Shown one piece after another: positions 5,435 through 9,163 of a stretch of 64,000 nt of DNA. The DNA comes from Chitinophagales bacterium (GTDB lineage Bacteria; Bacteroidota; Bacteroidia; Chitinophagales; JADIYW01): NCBI GenBank assembly GCA_023957235.1, contig JAMLHI010000007.1, positions 35,738-99,737 of the forward strand, written 5' to 3'. The first letter of the stretch is position 1. Every line of letters begins with the position of its first letter. The notes under the pieces are model-generated. The model did no database searches. It was given only the letters and a program-made list of their open reading frames with translations, and had not been told where the DNA came from. Position numbers and translations under genes: made by a program.

Positions 5435-6259
5435 TTATTCGCCTTTCCATTCAGGCTTTCGTTTTTCTTTGAATGCCAAAAGACCTTCTGTGGCATCTTT
5501 ACTTTTTAGGCAGTCCATCAACATTGAATGTAAATATTTATGTTTTTCTTCAGCATTTTTTGTTTTCATTTCTTGGAATGCTTTTAAACCTAAGCGTAAA
5601 GCAGTTGGCGATTGCTCTTTGATTTCTACAATTAATTCTTGTACTCTTGATGCTAAATTTTCTTCTTTCACAACTTCAGATACAATTCCAATTTCTTGAG
5701 CCTCTTTAGCATTTAAAATTTTTGCTCTTATACATAAATCTAATAGCTGTCTTGCTGACATTAAAGGCTCTAAAGTTGCCATTACTTGAAAAGGGAAAAT
5801 GCCTCTTTTTACTTCTGGCAAGCCAAATTTTGCAGACTCAACTGCAATAACGTGTGTGCAGCCGCCTATCATTAAAAAGCCACCAGCATATACATCAGCG
5901 TGTACTTGTGCGATACAAGGCTTGTGTAATCCATTGAATTCATCGCCTAACTTAATGACATCTTTAGGCATTGGAATTGTCGATGCTTTTTCAGCAATAT
6001 TTTCTCCAGCAAATGCTTTTAAATCGGCGCCAGCACAAAAAGTAAGTCCATTAGCTTTTAATACTACACACCAAATAGCATTGTTGTAATGCGCATAGGC
6101 TAATGCATAGGCAAGTTCATTGACTAAGAATAAATGAAATGCATTTCGTTTTTCAGGACGATTCAATGTTATGGTTAATACATTATCATTCTCTTCTACG
6201 ATGATATAAGCGAAGTTTTGTGATGTGAAATTGCTTGTTTGTTCTTGTGTGTATTGCAT
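5435..6259 (-). CDS. Enoyl-CoA hydratase/isomerase (crotonase)
   Basis: TLNRPEKRNA, FCAGADL, AGG, FGLPEVKRG and C-terminal EGLLAFKEKRKPEW. Confidence 0.9.
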   Translation of the reverse strand: MQYTQEQTSNFTSQNFAYIIVEENDNVLTITLNRPEKRNAFHLFLVNELAYALAYAHYNNAIWCVVLKANGLTFCAGADLKAFAGENIAEKASTIPMPKDVIKLGDEFNGLHKPCIAQVHADVYAGGFLMIGGCTHVIAVESAKFGLPEVKRGIFPFQVMATLEPLMSARQLLDLCIRAKILNAKEAQEIGIVSEVVKEENLASRVQELIVEIKEQSPTALRLGLKAFQEMKTKNAEEKHKYLHSMLMDCLKSKDATEGLLAFKEKRKPEWKGE

Positions 6260-6284: not shown

Positions 6285-6506
6285 TGTCATTCCTGCGAAA
6301 GCGGGAATCTCATTGTTCGTTGTTTATTTTCATGTGAGATTCCCTTTTGCAAGGGAATGACATTTTTTCTTAGTGTCATTCCAGCGAAAGCGGGAATCTT
6401 ATAGTGTTTTGTTTTAATTATTTTTCTTCTGTTTTTTCGTGTGAGATTCCCTTTTACAAGGGAATGACATTTTTTCTTAGTGTCATTTCCACGAAAGTGG
6501 GAATCT
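6285..6506. repeat. Left array of 26-bp palindromic REP-like repeats (A-B-A-B-A), consensus TGTC-ATTCC(N)-N8-GGGAAT-CT
   Basis: Forward copies at 6285, 6374 and 6481; inverted copies at 6337 and 6444; invariant 11-nt linker TTTTTTCTTAG. Confidence 0.95.
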
Positions 6507-6862
6507 CATTTTTTTATTGAGTAATATTTTTTAGTTTCTAAATAATCGATAACATCACTTTCAGAATACCAGTCTTTTGCTAAATCAATTCGTTCTTTGT
6601 TTATTGTGACAATCAATTCGTCTTTCCATTTTCTATTCCATTTTTTCAATTGTTTTTCTCTAAGTATAGCATCATTGATATCTTTAAATTCCTCATAGTA
6701 AATTAGTTTTTTTATTTTATATTTTTTAGTAAAAACAGAGCCATCACCTTGTTTGTGTTGTAAAATTCGATACCAGATGTTGCTTGTTACTCCAATGTAT
6801 ATGACATTTCCAAGATTGTTGGAAATAATATATATGCATGGTTGTTTTTTGTCTATTCTCAT
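6506..6862 (-). CDS. Stand-alone GIY-YIG nuclease family protein (UPF0213/YhbQ-like)
   Basis: CIYII...IYIGVTSN...R..QH...FTKKY...LIYYEEF...A..REKQLKKWNRKWK: both Tyr motifs plus the catalytic Arg and Glu are present. Confidence 0.9.
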   Translation of the reverse strand: MRIDKKQPCIYIISNNLGNVIYIGVTSNIWYRILQHKQGDGSVFTKKYKIKKLIYYEEFKDINDAILREKQLKKWNRKWKDELIVTINKERIDLAKDWYSESDVIDYLETKKYYSIKK

Positions 6863-6874
6863 TTTATATTTTTA

Positions 6875-7149
6875 TGTCATTCCAGTAAAGGTGGGAATCT
6901 TATTGTTTGTTGTATATTTTCATGTGAGATTCCCTTTTACAAGGGAATGACATTTTTTCTTAGTGTCATTCCAGCAAAGGTAGGAACCTTATTATTCGTT
7001 GTTTATTTTCATGTGAGATTCCTTTTTACAAGGGAATGACATTTTTTCTTAGTGTCATTCCAGCAAAGGTGGGAATCTCAATATATATTGTTTGTTTTAT
7101 TGTTCATTTATATTTTTTTCGTTGGATTCCCTTTTACAAGGGAATGACA
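6875..7149. repeat. Right array of 26-bp palindromic REP-like repeats (A-B-A-B-A-B), 89-bp period
   Basis: Forward copies at 6875, 6964 and 7053; inverted copies at 6927, 7016 and 7124; same linker as the left array. Confidence 0.95.
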
Positions 7150-7150
7150 T

Positions 7151-7198
7151 AATTATTTCATTATTTCATTATTTCATTCCTTCATTCCTTCATTATTC
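7151..7198. repeat. Orphan 8-bp tandem repeat
   Basis: AATTATTT CATTATTT CATTATTT CATTCCTT CATTCCTT CATTATTC; contains the carboxylase stop codon. Confidence 0.8.
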
Positions 7199-9163
7199 CT
7201 TCATCTTCAACAATAGCGTTCCACTTTCAATAAATTGTTTTTCAGTAACATATACCTCTTCTATTTCACCATCTGAATGAGCTTCAATTGTACTTTCCAT
7301 TTTCATAGAAATCATTTTTAATAATGCATCACCAGATTTTACAAAATCGCCAGCTTTCACCAAAACAAGAGTAATATCACCAGGCATTGGAGCCACATAA
7401 GCTCCTTTGACAATATCTTCTTTTGGAGTAGGAAAACGTTCAAGGCTGTTTAATACAATTTGACCAAGTTGTGGTGATTGTATAAAATAAAGTGAACCAT
7501 TTTGAGATATATAAAATTTACGGCGAATACTATTGATTTCTAGTACAAGCATATTTGATAGCAAAGGAAGGTGCTTGGAAACAAAATTTTTATCAGCAAA
7601 TGAAATATGCAACTCATTATTTTTAGCGATGTATGAGACCGGAAACTCATACCCTAAATAACTATATTTCTCTTGTTGTGCTTGAAAAAAATTATTACGC
7701 CATCCACTAGGGACATTTTGTGCAATTTTTTTCTCTTTTTGACGATGTAGAAATCTAAAATGAACCAATGCACTAGTCAATATATCTAAAGTATCTTGTG
7801 GATATTGTTCTCCTTGATAAATAAAATTTTTATCTAAGAAATGTGTGTCAAATCGACCATTTTGAAAGTCTTCATTTTTTAAGACAGCGACTAGAAAATT
7901 TTTATTGTTAGTAAAACCGCTACAAACAGTTTCTTGCAATGCAGATTTTAATTTCAATATTGCCTCATTTCTGTTTTTCCCTTTTGCTATTATTTTGGCA
8001 ATCATTGGATCGTAATAGGTAGAAATTTCAGAACCACTTTCGATACCAGTGTCATAACGCAAACCATCTGTAATAGAAGGAATCCAATCAATAATTTTTC
8101 CATTTACAGGTAAAAAATTATTACTCGGATCTTCAGCATATAAACGCACTTCAATAGCGTGGCCATTTTGCGAAATGTCTTCTTGCTTAAAATTAATTTT
8201 ATCGCCTTGTGCTACTTCAATTTGTAACCGAACTAAATCTAAACCTGTTACTTCTTCAGTGACTGGGTGTTCAACTTGTAAACGCGTATTGACTTCTAAA
8301 AAGTAAAAGGAAAAGTCTGGTGTCACTATAAATTCGACAGTGCCAGCATTATCATAACCGATAGCTTTTGCTGCTTGTATGGCAGCTTTTCCCATTTCTT
8401 CACGTAGTGCCAAAGTCATAATAGGTGAGGGGCTTTCTTCTAAGACTTTTTGATACCTCCTTTGTATAGAACATTCTCGCTCGAAAAGATGAATGGCATT
8501 GCCATGCTTATCTCCGAAAATTTGAAACTCTATATGACGAGAACTGTCAAAGTATTTTTCAATTAATAAAGTGTCATCTCCAAATCCATTGAGGGCTTCA
8601 CTTTTTGCAGCTTCGATAGACTTATCCAATTCAGGCTCACTTCTGACGATGCGCATCCCTTTTCCTCCTCCTCCTGCAGACGCTTTGAGTAATATTGGAA
8701 ACCCAATCTCAATAGCTTTTTGTCGAATAACACTATGCGACTGGTCTTCACCTTGATACCCTGGAATAGTTGGGACACCATATTTTTGCATAATTTTTTT
8801 TGCACCTATTTTGGAGCCCATTTGTCTAATTGCCTCAGGATGAGGGCCTATCCATATTAGACCAGCATCAATAACTGATTGAGCAAAATCTGCTCTTTCT
8901 GACAAAAATCCATAACCTGGATGAATAGCATCGGCTGCTGTTGCTTTGGCAGCAGCAATTATTTTTTCTCCTAATAAGTAGGATTCACTAGGTTGTTTGC
9001 CTCCGAGGCGAACTGCTTCATCTGCTTTTTGTACAAAGAGAGCGTTTTCATCAGCATCAGAAAATACAGCTACTGTTGAGATACCCATTTCGCAACATGT
9101 TCGCATAATTCTGACGGCAATTTCTCCACGGTTAGCAATTAGAATTTTTTTTATGGTTGACAT
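7193..9163 (-). CDS. Biotin-dependent acyl-CoA carboxylase alpha subunit (biotin carboxylase + BCCP; AtuF/LiuD-like)
   Basis: LIANRGEIA, HPGYGFLSE, GGGGKGMR and EVNTRLQVEHPVTE motifs; C-terminal SMKME biotin-lysine motif. Confidence 0.92.
   Translation of the reverse strand: MSTIKKILIANRGEIAVRIMRTCCEMGISTVAVFSDADENALFVQKADEAVRLGGKQPSESYLLGEKIIAAAKATAADAIHPGYGFLSERADFAQSVIDAGLIWIGPHPEAIRQMGSKIGAKKIMQKYGVPTIPGYQGEDQSHSVIRQKAIEIGFPILLKASAGGGGKGMRIVRSEPELDKSIEAAKSEALNGFGDDTLLIEKYFDSSRHIEFQIFGDKHGNAIHLFERECSIQRRYQKVLEESPSPIMTLALREEMGKAAIQAAKAIGYDNAGTVEFIVTPDFSFYFLEVNTRLQVEHPVTEEVTGLDLVRLQIEVAQGDKINFKQEDISQNGHAIEVRLYAEDPSNNFLPVNGKIIDWIPSITDGLRYDTGIESGSEISTYYDPMIAKIIAKGKNRNEAILKLKSALQETVCSGFTNNKNFLVAVLKNEDFQNGRFDTHFLDKNFIYQGEQYPQDTLDILTSALVHFRFLHRQKEKKIAQNVPSGWRNNFFQAQQEKYSYLGYEFPVSYIAKNNELHISFADKNFVSKHLPLLSNMLVLEINSIRRKFYISQNGSLYFIQSPQLGQIVLNSLERFPTPKEDIVKGAYVAPMPGDITLVLVKAGDFVKSGDALLKMISMKMESTIEAHSDGEIEEVYVTEKQFIESGTLLLKMKE

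What the first reader, a model, noticed from the sequence alone, without database searches (positions are those of the whole stretch)
6285..7149. Stand-alone GIY-YIG nuclease embedded in an array of eleven 26-bp palindromes: a REPtron-like element without a RAYT
Seen: a 118-aa GIY-YIG gene with intact catalytic motifs is flanked by 5 (left) and 6 (right) copies of TGTC-ATTCC(N)-N8-GGGAAT-CT. The copies alternate between forward (A) and inverted (B), with an invariant 11-nt B-A linker and an 89-bp basic period. The whole block separates two operon genes that would otherwise be adjacent, and the stop codon overlaps the last base of repeat A3. Established: the layout (tetranucleotide tag plus hairpin, inverted doublets, flanking a nuclease gene) parallels REP/BIME/REPIN arrays around the HUH-family RAYT (TnpA-REP), and the ATTCCC-N8-GGGAAT core matches the Neisseria dRS3 consensus. 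Inference: the GIY-YIG protein is the cognate enzyme that nicks and spreads these hairpins, making this a REP-mobilising system built on a different nuclease fold. This is the best candidate for an undescribed system in the window.
Basis: partly seen in the sequence, partly recalled or inferred. Interest (0 to 1): 0.85.

Follow-up and report, generated by a model that had tools for sequence, protein, structure and literature searches.

The report
Ssn nuclease gene among hairpin repeats
A small DNA-cutting enzyme gene sits among eleven copies of the hairpin sequence that enzymes of its family recognise; the arrangement is real, but this type of system was published in 2025, so it is a new example and not a new kind.

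Summary
Window 6285-7149 contains 11 tagged hairpins (0.45 expected by chance). They alternate in orientation around a 118-aa single-domain GIY-YIG gene at 6506-6862, minus strand, and four invariant 11-nt linkers separate head-to-head pairs.

It is not an undescribed system. It matches the Ssn/SRM system of Chenal et al. 2025 (PMC11893778). There, SsnA, a 94-aa GIY-YIG protein, binds its NTS hairpin (an extended dRS3 repeat) in single-stranded DNA and cuts just upstream. That paper already draws the IS/RAYT-REP analogy.

- **Protein:** 45% identical (E=3e-24) to a 94-aa homolog from the genus of Neisseria lactamica that lies among canonical NTS repeats. The three residues that paper mutated are conserved.
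- **Repeat association:** 75 of 80 metagenomic homolog loci carry such hairpins within 330 bp.
- **Repeat type:** the copies fit the CGTC-1 REP description of Di Nocera 2013.

What this locus adds:
- The AT-rich hairpin variants escape the published SRM search string (0 of 11).
- Relatives have cassette-free alleles of the same operon junction.
- Only 13 copies exist in this genome, so nothing shows genome-wide spread here.

This scan has found the same kind of system before on other DNA. Verdict: a new member of a known kind, of low interest.

The parts
6506..6862 (-). ssnA-like gene: 118-aa single-domain GIY-YIG nuclease, with a C-terminal extension of about 20 aa relative to the 94-aa Neisseria-genus homolog
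   Evidence: PF01541 E=5.5e-16, residues 8-80. blastp E=3e-24 and 45% identity to L210:1483-1764. Y11, Y22 and E69 align with Y6, Y17 and E64. Extension seen in the alignment.
6285..6312 (+). hairpin copy A1 (TGTC tag, 8-bp stem with one mismatch, GAAA loop)
6335..6362 (-). hairpin copy B1 (AT-rich inner stem, GCAA loop on its own strand)
   Evidence: DNA fold -6.7 kcal/mol, z=-3.9
6363..6373 (.). 11-nt head-to-head linker TTTTTTCTTAG between the tags of B1 and A2
6374..6401 (+). hairpin copy A2; the only copy that fits the published SRM string once its last position is freed
6442..6469 (-). hairpin copy B2
6470..6480 (.). 11-nt head-to-head linker
6481..6508 (+). hairpin copy A3; its last three bases are the complement of the gene's stop codon
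   Evidence: DNA fold -4.0 kcal/mol
6875..6902 (+). hairpin copy A4, 12 nt upstream of the start codon on the gene's strand
6925..6952 (-). hairpin copy B3
6953..6963 (.). 11-nt head-to-head linker
6964..6991 (+). hairpin copy A5 (degenerate, 1 mismatch to the core pattern)
7014..7041 (-). hairpin copy B4
7042..7052 (.). 11-nt head-to-head linker
7053..7080 (+). hairpin copy A6
7122..7149 (-). hairpin copy B5, outermost copy next to the carboxylase gene
7193..9163 (-). upstream operon gene: biotin carboxylase with biotinyl domain (not part of the cassette; marks the insertion site)
   Evidence: same neighbour in G041, G021, G008, L211 and L214
5435..6259 (-). downstream operon gene: enoyl-CoA hydratase (not part of the cassette; marks the insertion site)
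   Evidence: intergenic distance 7-85 bp in cassette-free relatives G044, G023 and G048

Best explanation
This is a Bacteroidota copy of the Ssn system. It consists of a small single-domain GIY-YIG nuclease gene (ssnA-like) bracketed by its own tagged hairpin repeats. Those repeats are of the NTS/SRM type, equivalent to CGTC-1 REPs and extended dRS3.

**Inferred from characterised homologs.** The protein binds the hairpin when the DNA is single-stranded. It reads the stem sequence and the C just after the stem, and it cuts a few bases 5' of the GTC tag. It does not act on duplex DNA or on RNA.

**Shown here from sequence.**
- The minimal unit is hairpin - gene - inverted hairpin, with the tags at the outer ends, as in L214, G041 and G008.
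- The cassette lies in the intergenic gap of a carboxylase-hydratase operon, on the same strand as the operon. Co-transcription with the operon is an inference from that position.
- The hairpins look like terminators only on the opposite strand.

**Inferred from spacer patterns.** The 11-copy array grew by local tandem duplication of a two-hairpin unit of about 89-108 bp, not by transposition.

**Role in this genome.** The repeat is almost confined to this locus. The cassette is therefore most likely a persisting selfish or neutral passenger that is gained or lost as a block, rather than a genome-wide REP system.
For: **Family identity.**
- Only the GIY-YIG domain is present.
- blastp against a 94-aa homolog from the genus of Neisseria lactamica gives E=3e-24 and 45% identity over residues 2-79 of 94. 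That homolog is itself embedded in alternating canonical NTS copies.
- Y11, Y22 and E69 align with the Y6, Y17 and E64 whose mutation abolished cutting.
- Similarity to the UPF0213 type is much weaker: 25% identity and E=6e-7, and E=1.5e-4 against PDB entry 1ywl.

**Repeat identity.** The copies have a TGTC tag, an 8-bp stem starting AT, a 4-nt loop and a head-to-head dimer arrangement. This is how Di Nocera 2013 describes CGTC-1 REPs, which that paper equates with dRS3.

**Gene-repeat association.**
- 9 of 29 relatives' loci carry the hairpins, 8 of them on both sides. Density is 2.15 per kb within 300 bp against 0.18 per kb further out.
- 75 of 80 metagenome loci carry them, 56 on both sides. 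Density is 4.01 against 0.24 per kb.

**Selection on the hairpin.** The 28-nt B copy is identical in G000, G041, G021 and G008. The linkers between copies are unrelated in sequence and length: 11 nt, about 21 nt, 23-24 nt and about 59 nt.

**Insertion status.** 17 of 21 comparable loci lack the gene, with gaps as short as 7, 37 and 85 bp.

**Terminator-like sites.** 5 on the plus strand and none on the operon's strand, against 0.5 expected.
Against: - The published degenerate SRM search string hits 0 of the 11 copies. It hits 1 of 11 if the last base is freed, and 8 of 11 if two S positions are freed and the tail is dropped.
- The copies differ from the 28-nt N. meningitidis NTS consensus at 4 to 9 positions.
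- The reference protein of the paper (CAX49033.1) and CDD model cd10448 could not be used here. Family membership therefore rests on an unnamed proxy from the genus of N. lactamica.
- N. lactamica NS19 has NTS copies, but no homolog was found there with this query. Repeats can therefore exist without the gene.
- 20 of 29 homolog loci in relatives, mostly the more distant hits, show no such hairpins.
- No experiment exists for this protein or for the AT-rich B variant. The paper reports that changing the stem sequence while keeping the hairpin abolished activity in Neisseria. Recognition of two different stems by one enzyme is therefore an assumption.
Confidence: 0.85

Rival explanations
1. One reading: the cassette is an autonomous REP-mobilising element, and the GIY-YIG nuclease nicks the hairpins and thereby copies them (and itself) to new sites, as RAYTs are thought to do for REPs.
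For: - The gene is bracketed by inverted tagged hairpins, like an IS with terminal repeats.
- Presence at the operon junction is patchy. On a hydratase tree the label needs 4 changes, of which well-supported branches force 2. Sister genomes G021 (with cassette) and G018 (without) differ.
- In relatives the homologs are multi-copy, often carry stop codons and sometimes occur in tandem, as selfish genes do.
- A homolog with 68% identity lies at another locus (G024).
- Chenal et al. raise the same hypothesis.
Against: - This genome has only two gene-less copies outside the locus (C1:517565 and C1:517937).
- Array units share spacers within a genome but not between genomes, which fits local duplication.
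- All six homologs with at least 75% identity lie just downstream of the same carboxylase gene. That fits inheritance with losses, or site-bound homing, rather than transposition.
- GIY-YIG enzymes hydrolyse DNA. As far as I recall (not from any call), they form no covalent intermediate that could rejoin strands as HUH transposases do.
- No target-site duplication is evident at the boundaries.
Confidence: 0.15
2. The cassette is a host-serving ssDNA restriction device, as proposed for Neisseria: it cuts incoming single strands that carry the hairpin and so limits recombination around marked genes.
For: The family function was shown in N. meningitidis. Loss of ssnA raised transformation with NTS-bearing DNA five-fold.
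Against: With 13 copies, 11 of them around the gene itself, hardly any of the genome is marked. No data on competence exist for this organism. 16 of 41 related genomes lack any homolog at E<=1e-5.
Confidence: 0.12
3. Coincidence: the hairpins are ordinary intergenic REPs or terminators, and an unrelated homing-type GIY-YIG gene happened to land among them.
For: - The carboxylase-hydratase gap is a hotspot for unrelated small repeats in relatives.
- The exact NTS core occurs in many phyla (at least 120 stretches).
- It also occurs in a genome where no homolog was found with this query.
Against: The hairpins are enriched 12- to 17-fold next to homologs in two independent sets. The protein has no DNA-binding module of the kind homing GIY-YIG enzymes carry. 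Gene start and stop lie within 0-18 nt of hairpins in four genomes.
Confidence: 0.03
4. A RAYT (Y1 transposase) encoded elsewhere in the genome mobilises these hairpins, and the GIY-YIG gene is a passenger.
For: The genome encodes two Y1_Tnp proteins above the Pfam cut-off (C1:546655, E=8e-27; C15:188962, E=7.5e-7).
Against: Both are flanked by their own, different palindromes (CCCTTCGGG-type and GGGACACGCCTCAAGGCGTGTCCC-type). The GTC-tagged repeat is not near either of them.
Confidence: 0.02

Closest known systems
Ssn family of site-specific ssDNA nucleases with NTS/SRM hairpin repeats (SsnA of Neisseria meningitidis; Chenal et al. 2025, Nat Commun 16:2388, PMC11893778; abstract, Results, Discussion and two Methods sections read)
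   Same: - Single-domain GIY-YIG protein of about 100 aa with the same catalytic residues.
- Gene bracketed by oriented hairpins with a (C/T)GTC tag, an ATTCC...GGAAT stem and a C after the stem.
- Alternating orientation in clusters.
- Homologs and hairpins are found together across phyla.
   Different: - The protein has about 20 extra C-terminal residues.
- Half of the copies have an AT-rich inner stem (CTTG-TAAA-AG).
- None of the copies fits the published SRM search string.
- The repeat is nearly confined to the gene's own locus (13 copies) instead of hundreds.
- The host is a low-GC Bacteroidota-type genome. The closest named homolog is from a Chitinophagales MAG. The word 'Bacteroid' does not occur in the paper's main text; its supplements were not seen.
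CGTC-tagged REPs, family CGTC-1 (Di Nocera, De Gregorio and Rocco 2013, BMC Genomics 14:522, PMC3733652; abstract and the 'CGTC families' section read)
   Same: TGTC variant of the tag, an 8-bp stem beginning AT, a 4-nt loop, a short unpaired tail, head-to-head dimers, and large clusters as in Neisseria and Wolbachia.
   Different: That paper concluded that CGTC REPs lack a dedicated enzyme. It reported them in 5 phyla, mostly alpha-Proteobacteria.
REP/BIME/REPIN elements with RAYT (TnpA-REP, HUH Y1 transposase)
   Same: Tagged hairpins in inverted doublets flank a single nuclease gene, with gene-less copies elsewhere. The head-to-head doublet can also fold as one longer hairpin across the linker.
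   Different: The enzyme fold and chemistry differ (GIY-YIG hydrolase, not HUH). The tag is GTC, not GTAG. The genome's own Y1_Tnp genes use other palindromes.
Neisseria intergenic mosaic elements (NIMEs: repeat units bounded by dRS3). This name and description are recalled, not taken from any call; one search for the phrase together with dRS3 found no paper.
   Same: Arrays of units of about 50-150 bp, each bounded by inverted dRS3-type hairpins. The Neisseria-genus locus L210 shows the same alternation of two hairpin variants around its ssnA homolog.
   Different: Different phylum; here there is a single array at a single locus.

Membership tests
Ssn nucleases (Chenal et al. 2025) | Single-domain GIY-YIG protein, under 150 aa | tested here: met
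   118 aa; PF01541 over residues 8-80, E=5.5e-16, no other Pfam family
Ssn nucleases (Chenal et al. 2025) | blastp similarity to N. meningitidis SsnA at E<1e-10 with at least 75% coverage (the paper's Methods) | tested here: met
   Tested with a proxy, not with CAX49033.1. The proxy is a 94-aa homolog from the genus of N. lactamica, lying among canonical NTS copies. blastp gives E=3e-24 and 45% identity, covering residues 2-79 of 94, which is 83%.
Ssn nucleases (Chenal et al. 2025) | Top CDD assignment cd10448 (GIY-YIG_unchar_3) | not testable with these tools
   No CDD library is available. Indirect evidence only: much weaker similarity to UPF0213-type proteins, and no NCBIfam hit.
Ssn nucleases (Chenal et al. 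2025) | Catalytic Tyr, Tyr and Glu (Y6, Y17, E64 in SsnA) | tested here: met
   Y11, Y22 and E69 align with them
Ssn nucleases (Chenal et al. 2025) | Oriented NTS-type hairpins on both sides of the gene within 500 bp | tested here: met
   5 copies on one side and 6 on the other, within 290 bp. Each has a tag, an 8-bp stem, a 4-nt loop and a C after the stem.
Ssn nucleases (Chenal et al. 2025) | Match to the paper's degenerate SRM search string. This is a search aid, not a defining criterion: 29% of the paper's homologs have no hit. | tested here: not met
   0 of 11 copies match. 1 of 11 matches with the last base freed. 8 of 11 match with two S positions freed and the tail dropped, which also gives 2 stray hits in the window.
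Ssn nucleases (Chenal et al. 2025) | Cuts ssDNA only, a few bases 5' of its hairpin | not testable with these tools
   Needs purified protein and oligonucleotides
CGTC-1 REPs (Di Nocera et al. 2013) | CGTC or TGTC tag, 8-bp stem starting AT, 4-nt loop, short tail, head-to-head dimers | tested here: met
   All 11 copies start TGTC-AT. Loops are 4 nt. Four head-to-head pairs have an 11-nt linker. The family description was read.
RAYT/REP system (REPtron) | HUH Y1 transposase gene flanked by its REPs | tested here: not met
   The gene here is GIY-YIG. The genome's Y1_Tnp genes are flanked by different palindromes.
UPF0213 / YhbQ-type GIY-YIG proteins | Close similarity to solved UPF0213 proteins | tested here: not met
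   PDB 1ywl E=1.5e-4, 1zg2 E=0.019. 25% identity to the UPF0213-like 91-aa protein of N. lactamica. In the alignment that group has G-x-G-A-x-Y-T where the Ssn group, including this protein, has F-T-x-x-Y.
Homing GIY-YIG endonucleases (I-TevI type) | Nuclease domain joined to a separate DNA-binding module | tested here: not met
   No second domain was found. The C-terminal 20 aa have no family match.

The most novel reading that the evidence does not exclude
The hairpin-gene-hairpin cassette may be a site-bound homing element. In head-to-head doublets the two tags face one short linker, so an Ssn enzyme acting on extruded or replicating single strands could cut both strands within a few bases of each other. 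Repair from a cassette-bearing copy would then spread the gene into hairpin-marked intergenic sites. Mis-repair would duplicate array units. This would give the hypothesised mobility of Ssn cassettes a concrete mechanism. It could also explain why the same operon junction is occupied in genomes of three genera while sister genomes have it empty or hold a solo hairpin.
Probability: 0.15. Interest if true: 0.55.

Novelty: new member of a known kind. Interest (0 to 1): 0.2.

Why it matters
What this locus adds is modest:
- It is a Bacteroidota example whose AT-rich hairpin variants escape the published search string. Surveys using that string therefore undercount the repeat partners in low-GC genomes.
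- It gives a clean natural series at one operon junction: an empty 7-bp gap, a solo hairpin, a minimal cassette, and arrays of 6 to 11 hairpins. That series could be used to study how these cassettes are gained, lost and amplified.
- It offers a possible enzyme/site pair with a new specificity for ssDNA tools.

Tried and rejected
- **Generic hairpin finder.** A loose GTCA-plus-hairpin finder was too noisy in this 33% GC genome: 302 hits against about 150 expected from a first-order Markov simulation. I replaced it with a stricter rule: GTC, an 8-9 bp stem with at most 1 mismatch, a 3-8 nt loop, then C.
- **Published SRM string and strict NTS consensus.** The SRM string gives 0 hits in the window and 5 unrelated hits in the genome. 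The NTS consensus gives 0 in the genome.
- **NCBIfam and PADLOC.** NCBIfam gave no family. PADLOC gave only a marginal hit, E=0.0041.
- **Literature searches.** 'GIY-YIG' with 'REPIN' returned only papers citing an author of that name. 'GIY-YIG' with 'repetitive extragenic palindromic' returned 0 papers. 'GIY-YIG', 'palindromic', 'repeats' and 'Bacteroidetes' returned 2 irrelevant papers. 'SsnA' with 'GIY-YIG' from 2024 onward returned only the Chenal paper. The lead to that paper came from earlier notes of this scan.
- **Named reference.** I tried to reach a named N. meningitidis SsnA. The one genome-contig scan returned a single Neisseria record, N. lactamica NS19. No homolog was found there with this query, only a UPF0213-like 91-aa gene without NTS flanks. 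I then searched that genus instead.
- **Sequencing runs.** No RNA holder is listed. Contigs of four DNA runs from four studies break at the repeats, and none bridges the carboxylase and hydratase genes with or without the cassette. One contig of 173-187 nt, seen in three runs, joins a copy of the 7095-7150 end to a unit that differs from 6370-6470 at 12 letters. I could not tell whether it is a strain variant or another array.
- **Unassembled arrays.** No contig end of the assembly carries the repeat.
- **Not run.** I did not run structure prediction, fold search or complex prediction, because the family assignment did not depend on them.
Full report
**1. The observation**

- The pattern GTCATTCC-N10-GGAATC (up to 2 mismatches) occurs 11 times in the 64-kb window. 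All 11 lie between 6286 and 7148. Chance expectation is 0.45, and none of 100 shuffles reaches 11.
- Five copies lie left and six right of a 118-aa ORF on the minus strand (6506-6862). Orientation alternates throughout.
- Extended to 28 nt, every copy starts with TGTC followed by an 8-bp stem beginning AT, a 4-nt loop and the tail CTCA, CTTA or CCAA.
- Plus-strand copies ('A') have a GC-rich inner stem with a GAAA-type loop. Minus-strand copies ('B') have an AT-rich inner stem (CTTG-TAAA-AG).
- In all four minus-to-plus junctions the two tags face each other across the same 11 nt, TTTTTTCTTAG.
- Unit spacing is 89 nt (once between 154-nt units, once between 54-nt units) and 107-108 nt otherwise.
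- The ORF matches Pfam GIY-YIG (E=5.5e-16, residues 8-80) and nothing else.
- Its stop codon forms the last three bases of copy 6481-6508. Its start codon lies 12 nt from copy 6875-6902.
- The neighbours are a biotin carboxylase (7193-9163) and an enoyl-CoA hydratase (5435-6259), both on the same strand as the ORF.

**2. Comparison with other genomes**

The window lies in a 3.0-Mb, 33% GC assembly of 17 contigs.

*Own genome.* The repeat is rare: the 11 copies at this locus plus two gene-less B-type copies at C1:517565 and C1:517937. No contig end carries it.

*Related genomes.*
- Among 41 genomes (the window's own plus 40 relatives), 25 have a homolog at E<=1e-5. Homologs are often present in several copies, sometimes in tandem, and often carry stop codons.
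- I scanned the 29 loci returned for genomes other than G000 with a strict rule: GTC, an 8-bp stem with at most one mismatch, a 3-8 nt loop, then C.
- Nine loci have such hairpins within 300 bp of the gene, eight of them on both sides. These nine include eight of the nine closest hits.
- Density is 2.15 per kb near the gene, 0.18 per kb in the rest of the same loci, 0.03 per kb in 26 control loci and 0.017 per kb in the whole G000 genome.
- The 20 loci without hairpins are mostly the more distant hits. Some of those belong to the UPF0213-like type.

*Metagenomes.* With a rule that also allows 9-bp stems, 75 of 80 homolog loci from an independent metagenome scan have at least one hairpin within 330 bp, and 56 have them on both sides. 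Density is 4.01 against 0.24 per kb.

*Covariation.* The tag and the outer stem are kept while the inner stem and loop change with the protein.
- Homologs at 76-82% identity share the window's two variants.
- Homologs at 44-68% identity have other stems, such as ATCCTGAACTTGTTTCAGGAT or ATTGCGGGCTTGACCCGCAAT.

**3. Identity of the system**

Earlier notes of this scan pointed to Chenal et al. 2025 (PMC11893778). I read its abstract, Results, Discussion and two Methods sections. The paper reports the following:
- It defines the Neisseria NTS as a 28-nt oriented extension of the dRS3 palindrome ATTCCC-N8-GGGAAT.
- Homologs of one gene, ssnA (94 aa, single-domain GIY-YIG, CDD cd10448), are flanked by such motifs. 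71% have at least one and 42% have them on both sides.
- SsnA binds the hairpin only as single-stranded DNA and cuts a few bases upstream.
- Neither duplex DNA, RNA nor the reverse strand is cut.
- Y6A, Y17A and E64A abolish cutting.
- Cutting depends on the three bases before the palindrome, and binding depends most on the C after it.
- Loss of ssnA raises transformation with NTS-bearing DNA five-fold.
- The Discussion states that the NTS-ssnA-NTS architecture resembles insertion sequences and compares it with IS200/IS605, REPs and BIMEs.

Di Nocera et al. 2013 (PMC3733652; abstract and one section read) had already catalogued these hairpins as CGTC-1 REPs. Their description: a TGTC tag variant, an 8-bp stem starting AT, a 4-nt loop, head-to-head dimers and large clusters in Neisseria. 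They equated them with dRS3 and concluded that they had no dedicated enzyme.

**4. Membership tests**

I could not obtain the paper's reference protein or CDD.
- A pattern scan of reference genomes found the NTS core in at least 120 stretches from many phyla. One of these was a Neisseria lactamica record.
- That genome gave no homolog with this query. It has only a UPF0213-like 91-aa gene without NTS flanks.
- Within its genus, 12 of 41 genomes have homologs at E of 1e-18 to 1e-21.
- In 10 of the 12 loci returned, those homologs lie among canonical NTS, or the variant hairpin CGTCATACTCGGGCTTGACCCGAGTATC, which may be the paper's NTSvar.
- One of them is 94 aa long, with Y6, Y17 and E64 in place. 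It sits in an array of two alternating hairpin variants, just as the window's gene does.
- Against that protein the window's protein scores E=3e-24 at 45% identity over residues 2-79 of 94. Its Y11, Y22 and E69 align with the three catalytic residues.
- Against the UPF0213-like protein it scores only E=6e-7 at 25% identity.
- Solved UPF0213 structures are weak hits, E=1.5e-4 and 0.019.
- Homologs in Povalibacter and Devosia, two genera the paper names as repeat-rich, score about E=1e-20 and are flanked by the canonical core.

One point counts against membership. The paper's degenerate SRM search string hits none of the 11 copies.
- The A copies fail mostly at the final base.
- The B copies fail at two positions that require G or C.

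That string is a search aid, and 29% of the paper's own homologs lack a hit. I therefore read this as under-coverage of AT-rich variants, not as exclusion from the family.

**5. The insertion site**

I took hydratase loci from 30 genomes of the same family, the window's genome included. Twenty-one of these have the carboxylase end within 1.5 kb upstream of the hydratase gene.
- Four carry the ssn gene with hairpins: G000, G041, G021 and G008, from three genus groups.
- Seventeen do not. Their gaps range from 7 bp (G044), 37 bp (G023) and 85 bp with a single NTS-like hairpin (G048) up to about 1.1 kb filled with other repeats or ORFs.
- Two metagenome homologs at 75-76% identity also lie just after the carboxylase gene. 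One (L211) lies between both genes.
- The other (L214) is frameshifted and shows the minimal form: one hairpin, the gene, one inverted hairpin.
- All six homologs of at least 75% identity therefore share this position. A 68% homolog in G024 lies elsewhere.
- On a hydratase tree the presence label needs four changes, of which well-supported branches force two. G021 (with cassette) and G018 (without) are sisters at SH-aLRT 94. This is a single-gene tree with 13 of 27 inner branches weak, so it shows patchiness but not direction.
- The 28-nt B copy is identical in the four genomes. The linkers and spacers are uniform within each genome but unrelated between genomes.

I infer that the hairpins are under constraint and that each array grew by local tandem duplication.

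**6. How it probably works**

The following steps are inferred from the homologs, not shown for this protein.
- The protein recognises the tagged hairpin when the DNA is single-stranded, for example during replication, uptake or repair. It then cuts 5' of the tag.
- In the head-to-head doublets both tags face the 11-nt linker. Cuts on either strand would therefore fall inside that linker.
- The doublet can also fold as one 9-10 bp hairpin across the linker (-10 to -11 kcal/mol, z of -3 to -4). The single hairpins fold at -4 to -6.7 kcal/mol.
- Terminator-like hairpin-plus-T-run sites occur only on the plus strand: 5 against 0.5 expected, and none on the operon's strand. The array should therefore let operon transcription pass, and the gene is probably co-transcribed.
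- Whether the cassette does anything for this host is open. With 13 copies, it cannot mark the genome as NTS does in pathogenic Neisseria.

**7. Rivals**

- *RAYT-driven origin.* Disfavoured. Both Y1_Tnp genes of the genome have their own, different flanking palindromes.
- *Chance co-location.* Disfavoured by the enrichment figures in section 2.
Public read sets gave contigs that break at the repeats and nothing decisive.

**8. Verdict**

It is a new member of a known kind, the Ssn nuclease with its NTS/SRM (CGTC-1 REP) hairpins. This scan has reached the same conclusion several times on other DNA, including a Bacteroidota case. Interest is low.

Noticed in passing
G000 C11:350711-351322 (L002 1165-1776, minus strand); outside the window: A second GIY-YIG gene of the UPF0213-like type, 41% identical to the window's protein. 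It reads on in frame through palindromic repeats of about 45 nt (TTCGACAAGCTCAGGCACCAG / CTGGTCATTGAGCTTGTCGAA), giving a 203-aa ORF with a repetitive tail (HFDKLNDQ..LVPELVEGT). The same repeats also lie upstream.
   Followed up: partly
G000 C15:188962-189366 (L008) and C1:546655-546999 (L007); outside the window: Two Y1_Tnp (RAYT-like) genes, each flanked by its own palindromes. In L008 a 31-nt palindrome lies on both sides, 94% complementary between arms, in the classic REP-RAYT layout.
   Followed up: partly
G000 C14:27300-27900 and C1:179600-180500; outside the window: Arrays of three other CGTCA-tagged repeats (for example CGTCACTCCGACGATAGGAGGAGTC and CGTCATCTCGACCAAAGGGAGAGATC). They have only about 5-bp outer stems. 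They are far more numerous in this genome than the NTS-like repeat, and no nuclease gene was seen next to them.
   Followed up: no
window 7144-7197: A tandem octamer run (ATTATTTC / ATTCCTTC, five units) lies directly after the carboxylase stop codon. Similar AATAATGA-type octamers follow the same stop codon in relatives with and without the cassette, so they predate it.
   Followed up: partly
L043, L045, L046, L049-L051, L054, L059, L060, L062-L064, L068 (carboxylase-hydratase gaps of relatives): The same intergenic gap is a hotspot. In different relatives it holds unrelated repeat families (for example ACTTTGCG-type, CACGTAGTG-type and GCTCC-N-GGAGC-type) or inserts of 0.7-1.2 kb with ORFs.
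   Followed up: no
L069-L188 (genome contigs): The exact 24-nt NTS core (one free base, two degenerate loop bases) occurs in at least 120 stretches. They come from Proteobacteria, Bacteroidota, Chloroflexota, Planctomycetota, Patescibacteria, Nitrospirota, Acidobacteriota and even a Nanoarchaeota MAG.
   Followed up: no
L127 / G057 (Neisseria lactamica NS19): This genome carries NTS copies, yet no ssn homolog was found with this query. Its only small GIY-YIG gene is UPF0213-like and has no NTS within 1.5 kb.
   Followed up: partly
L213 3001-3267 and 3556-3822 (metagenome contig): Two tandem copies of an ssn homolog, each 57% identical to the query, with hairpins around them. Tandem copies also occur in G013, G030, G021 and G029.
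   Followed up: no
window 6370-6470 and 7095-7150, in runs X2, X3 and X5: A contig of 173-187 nt, at single-copy depth in three runs, joins a copy of the outer array end to a unit that differs at 12 letters from 6370-6470. It may be a strain variant of the array or another array copy.
   Followed up: no
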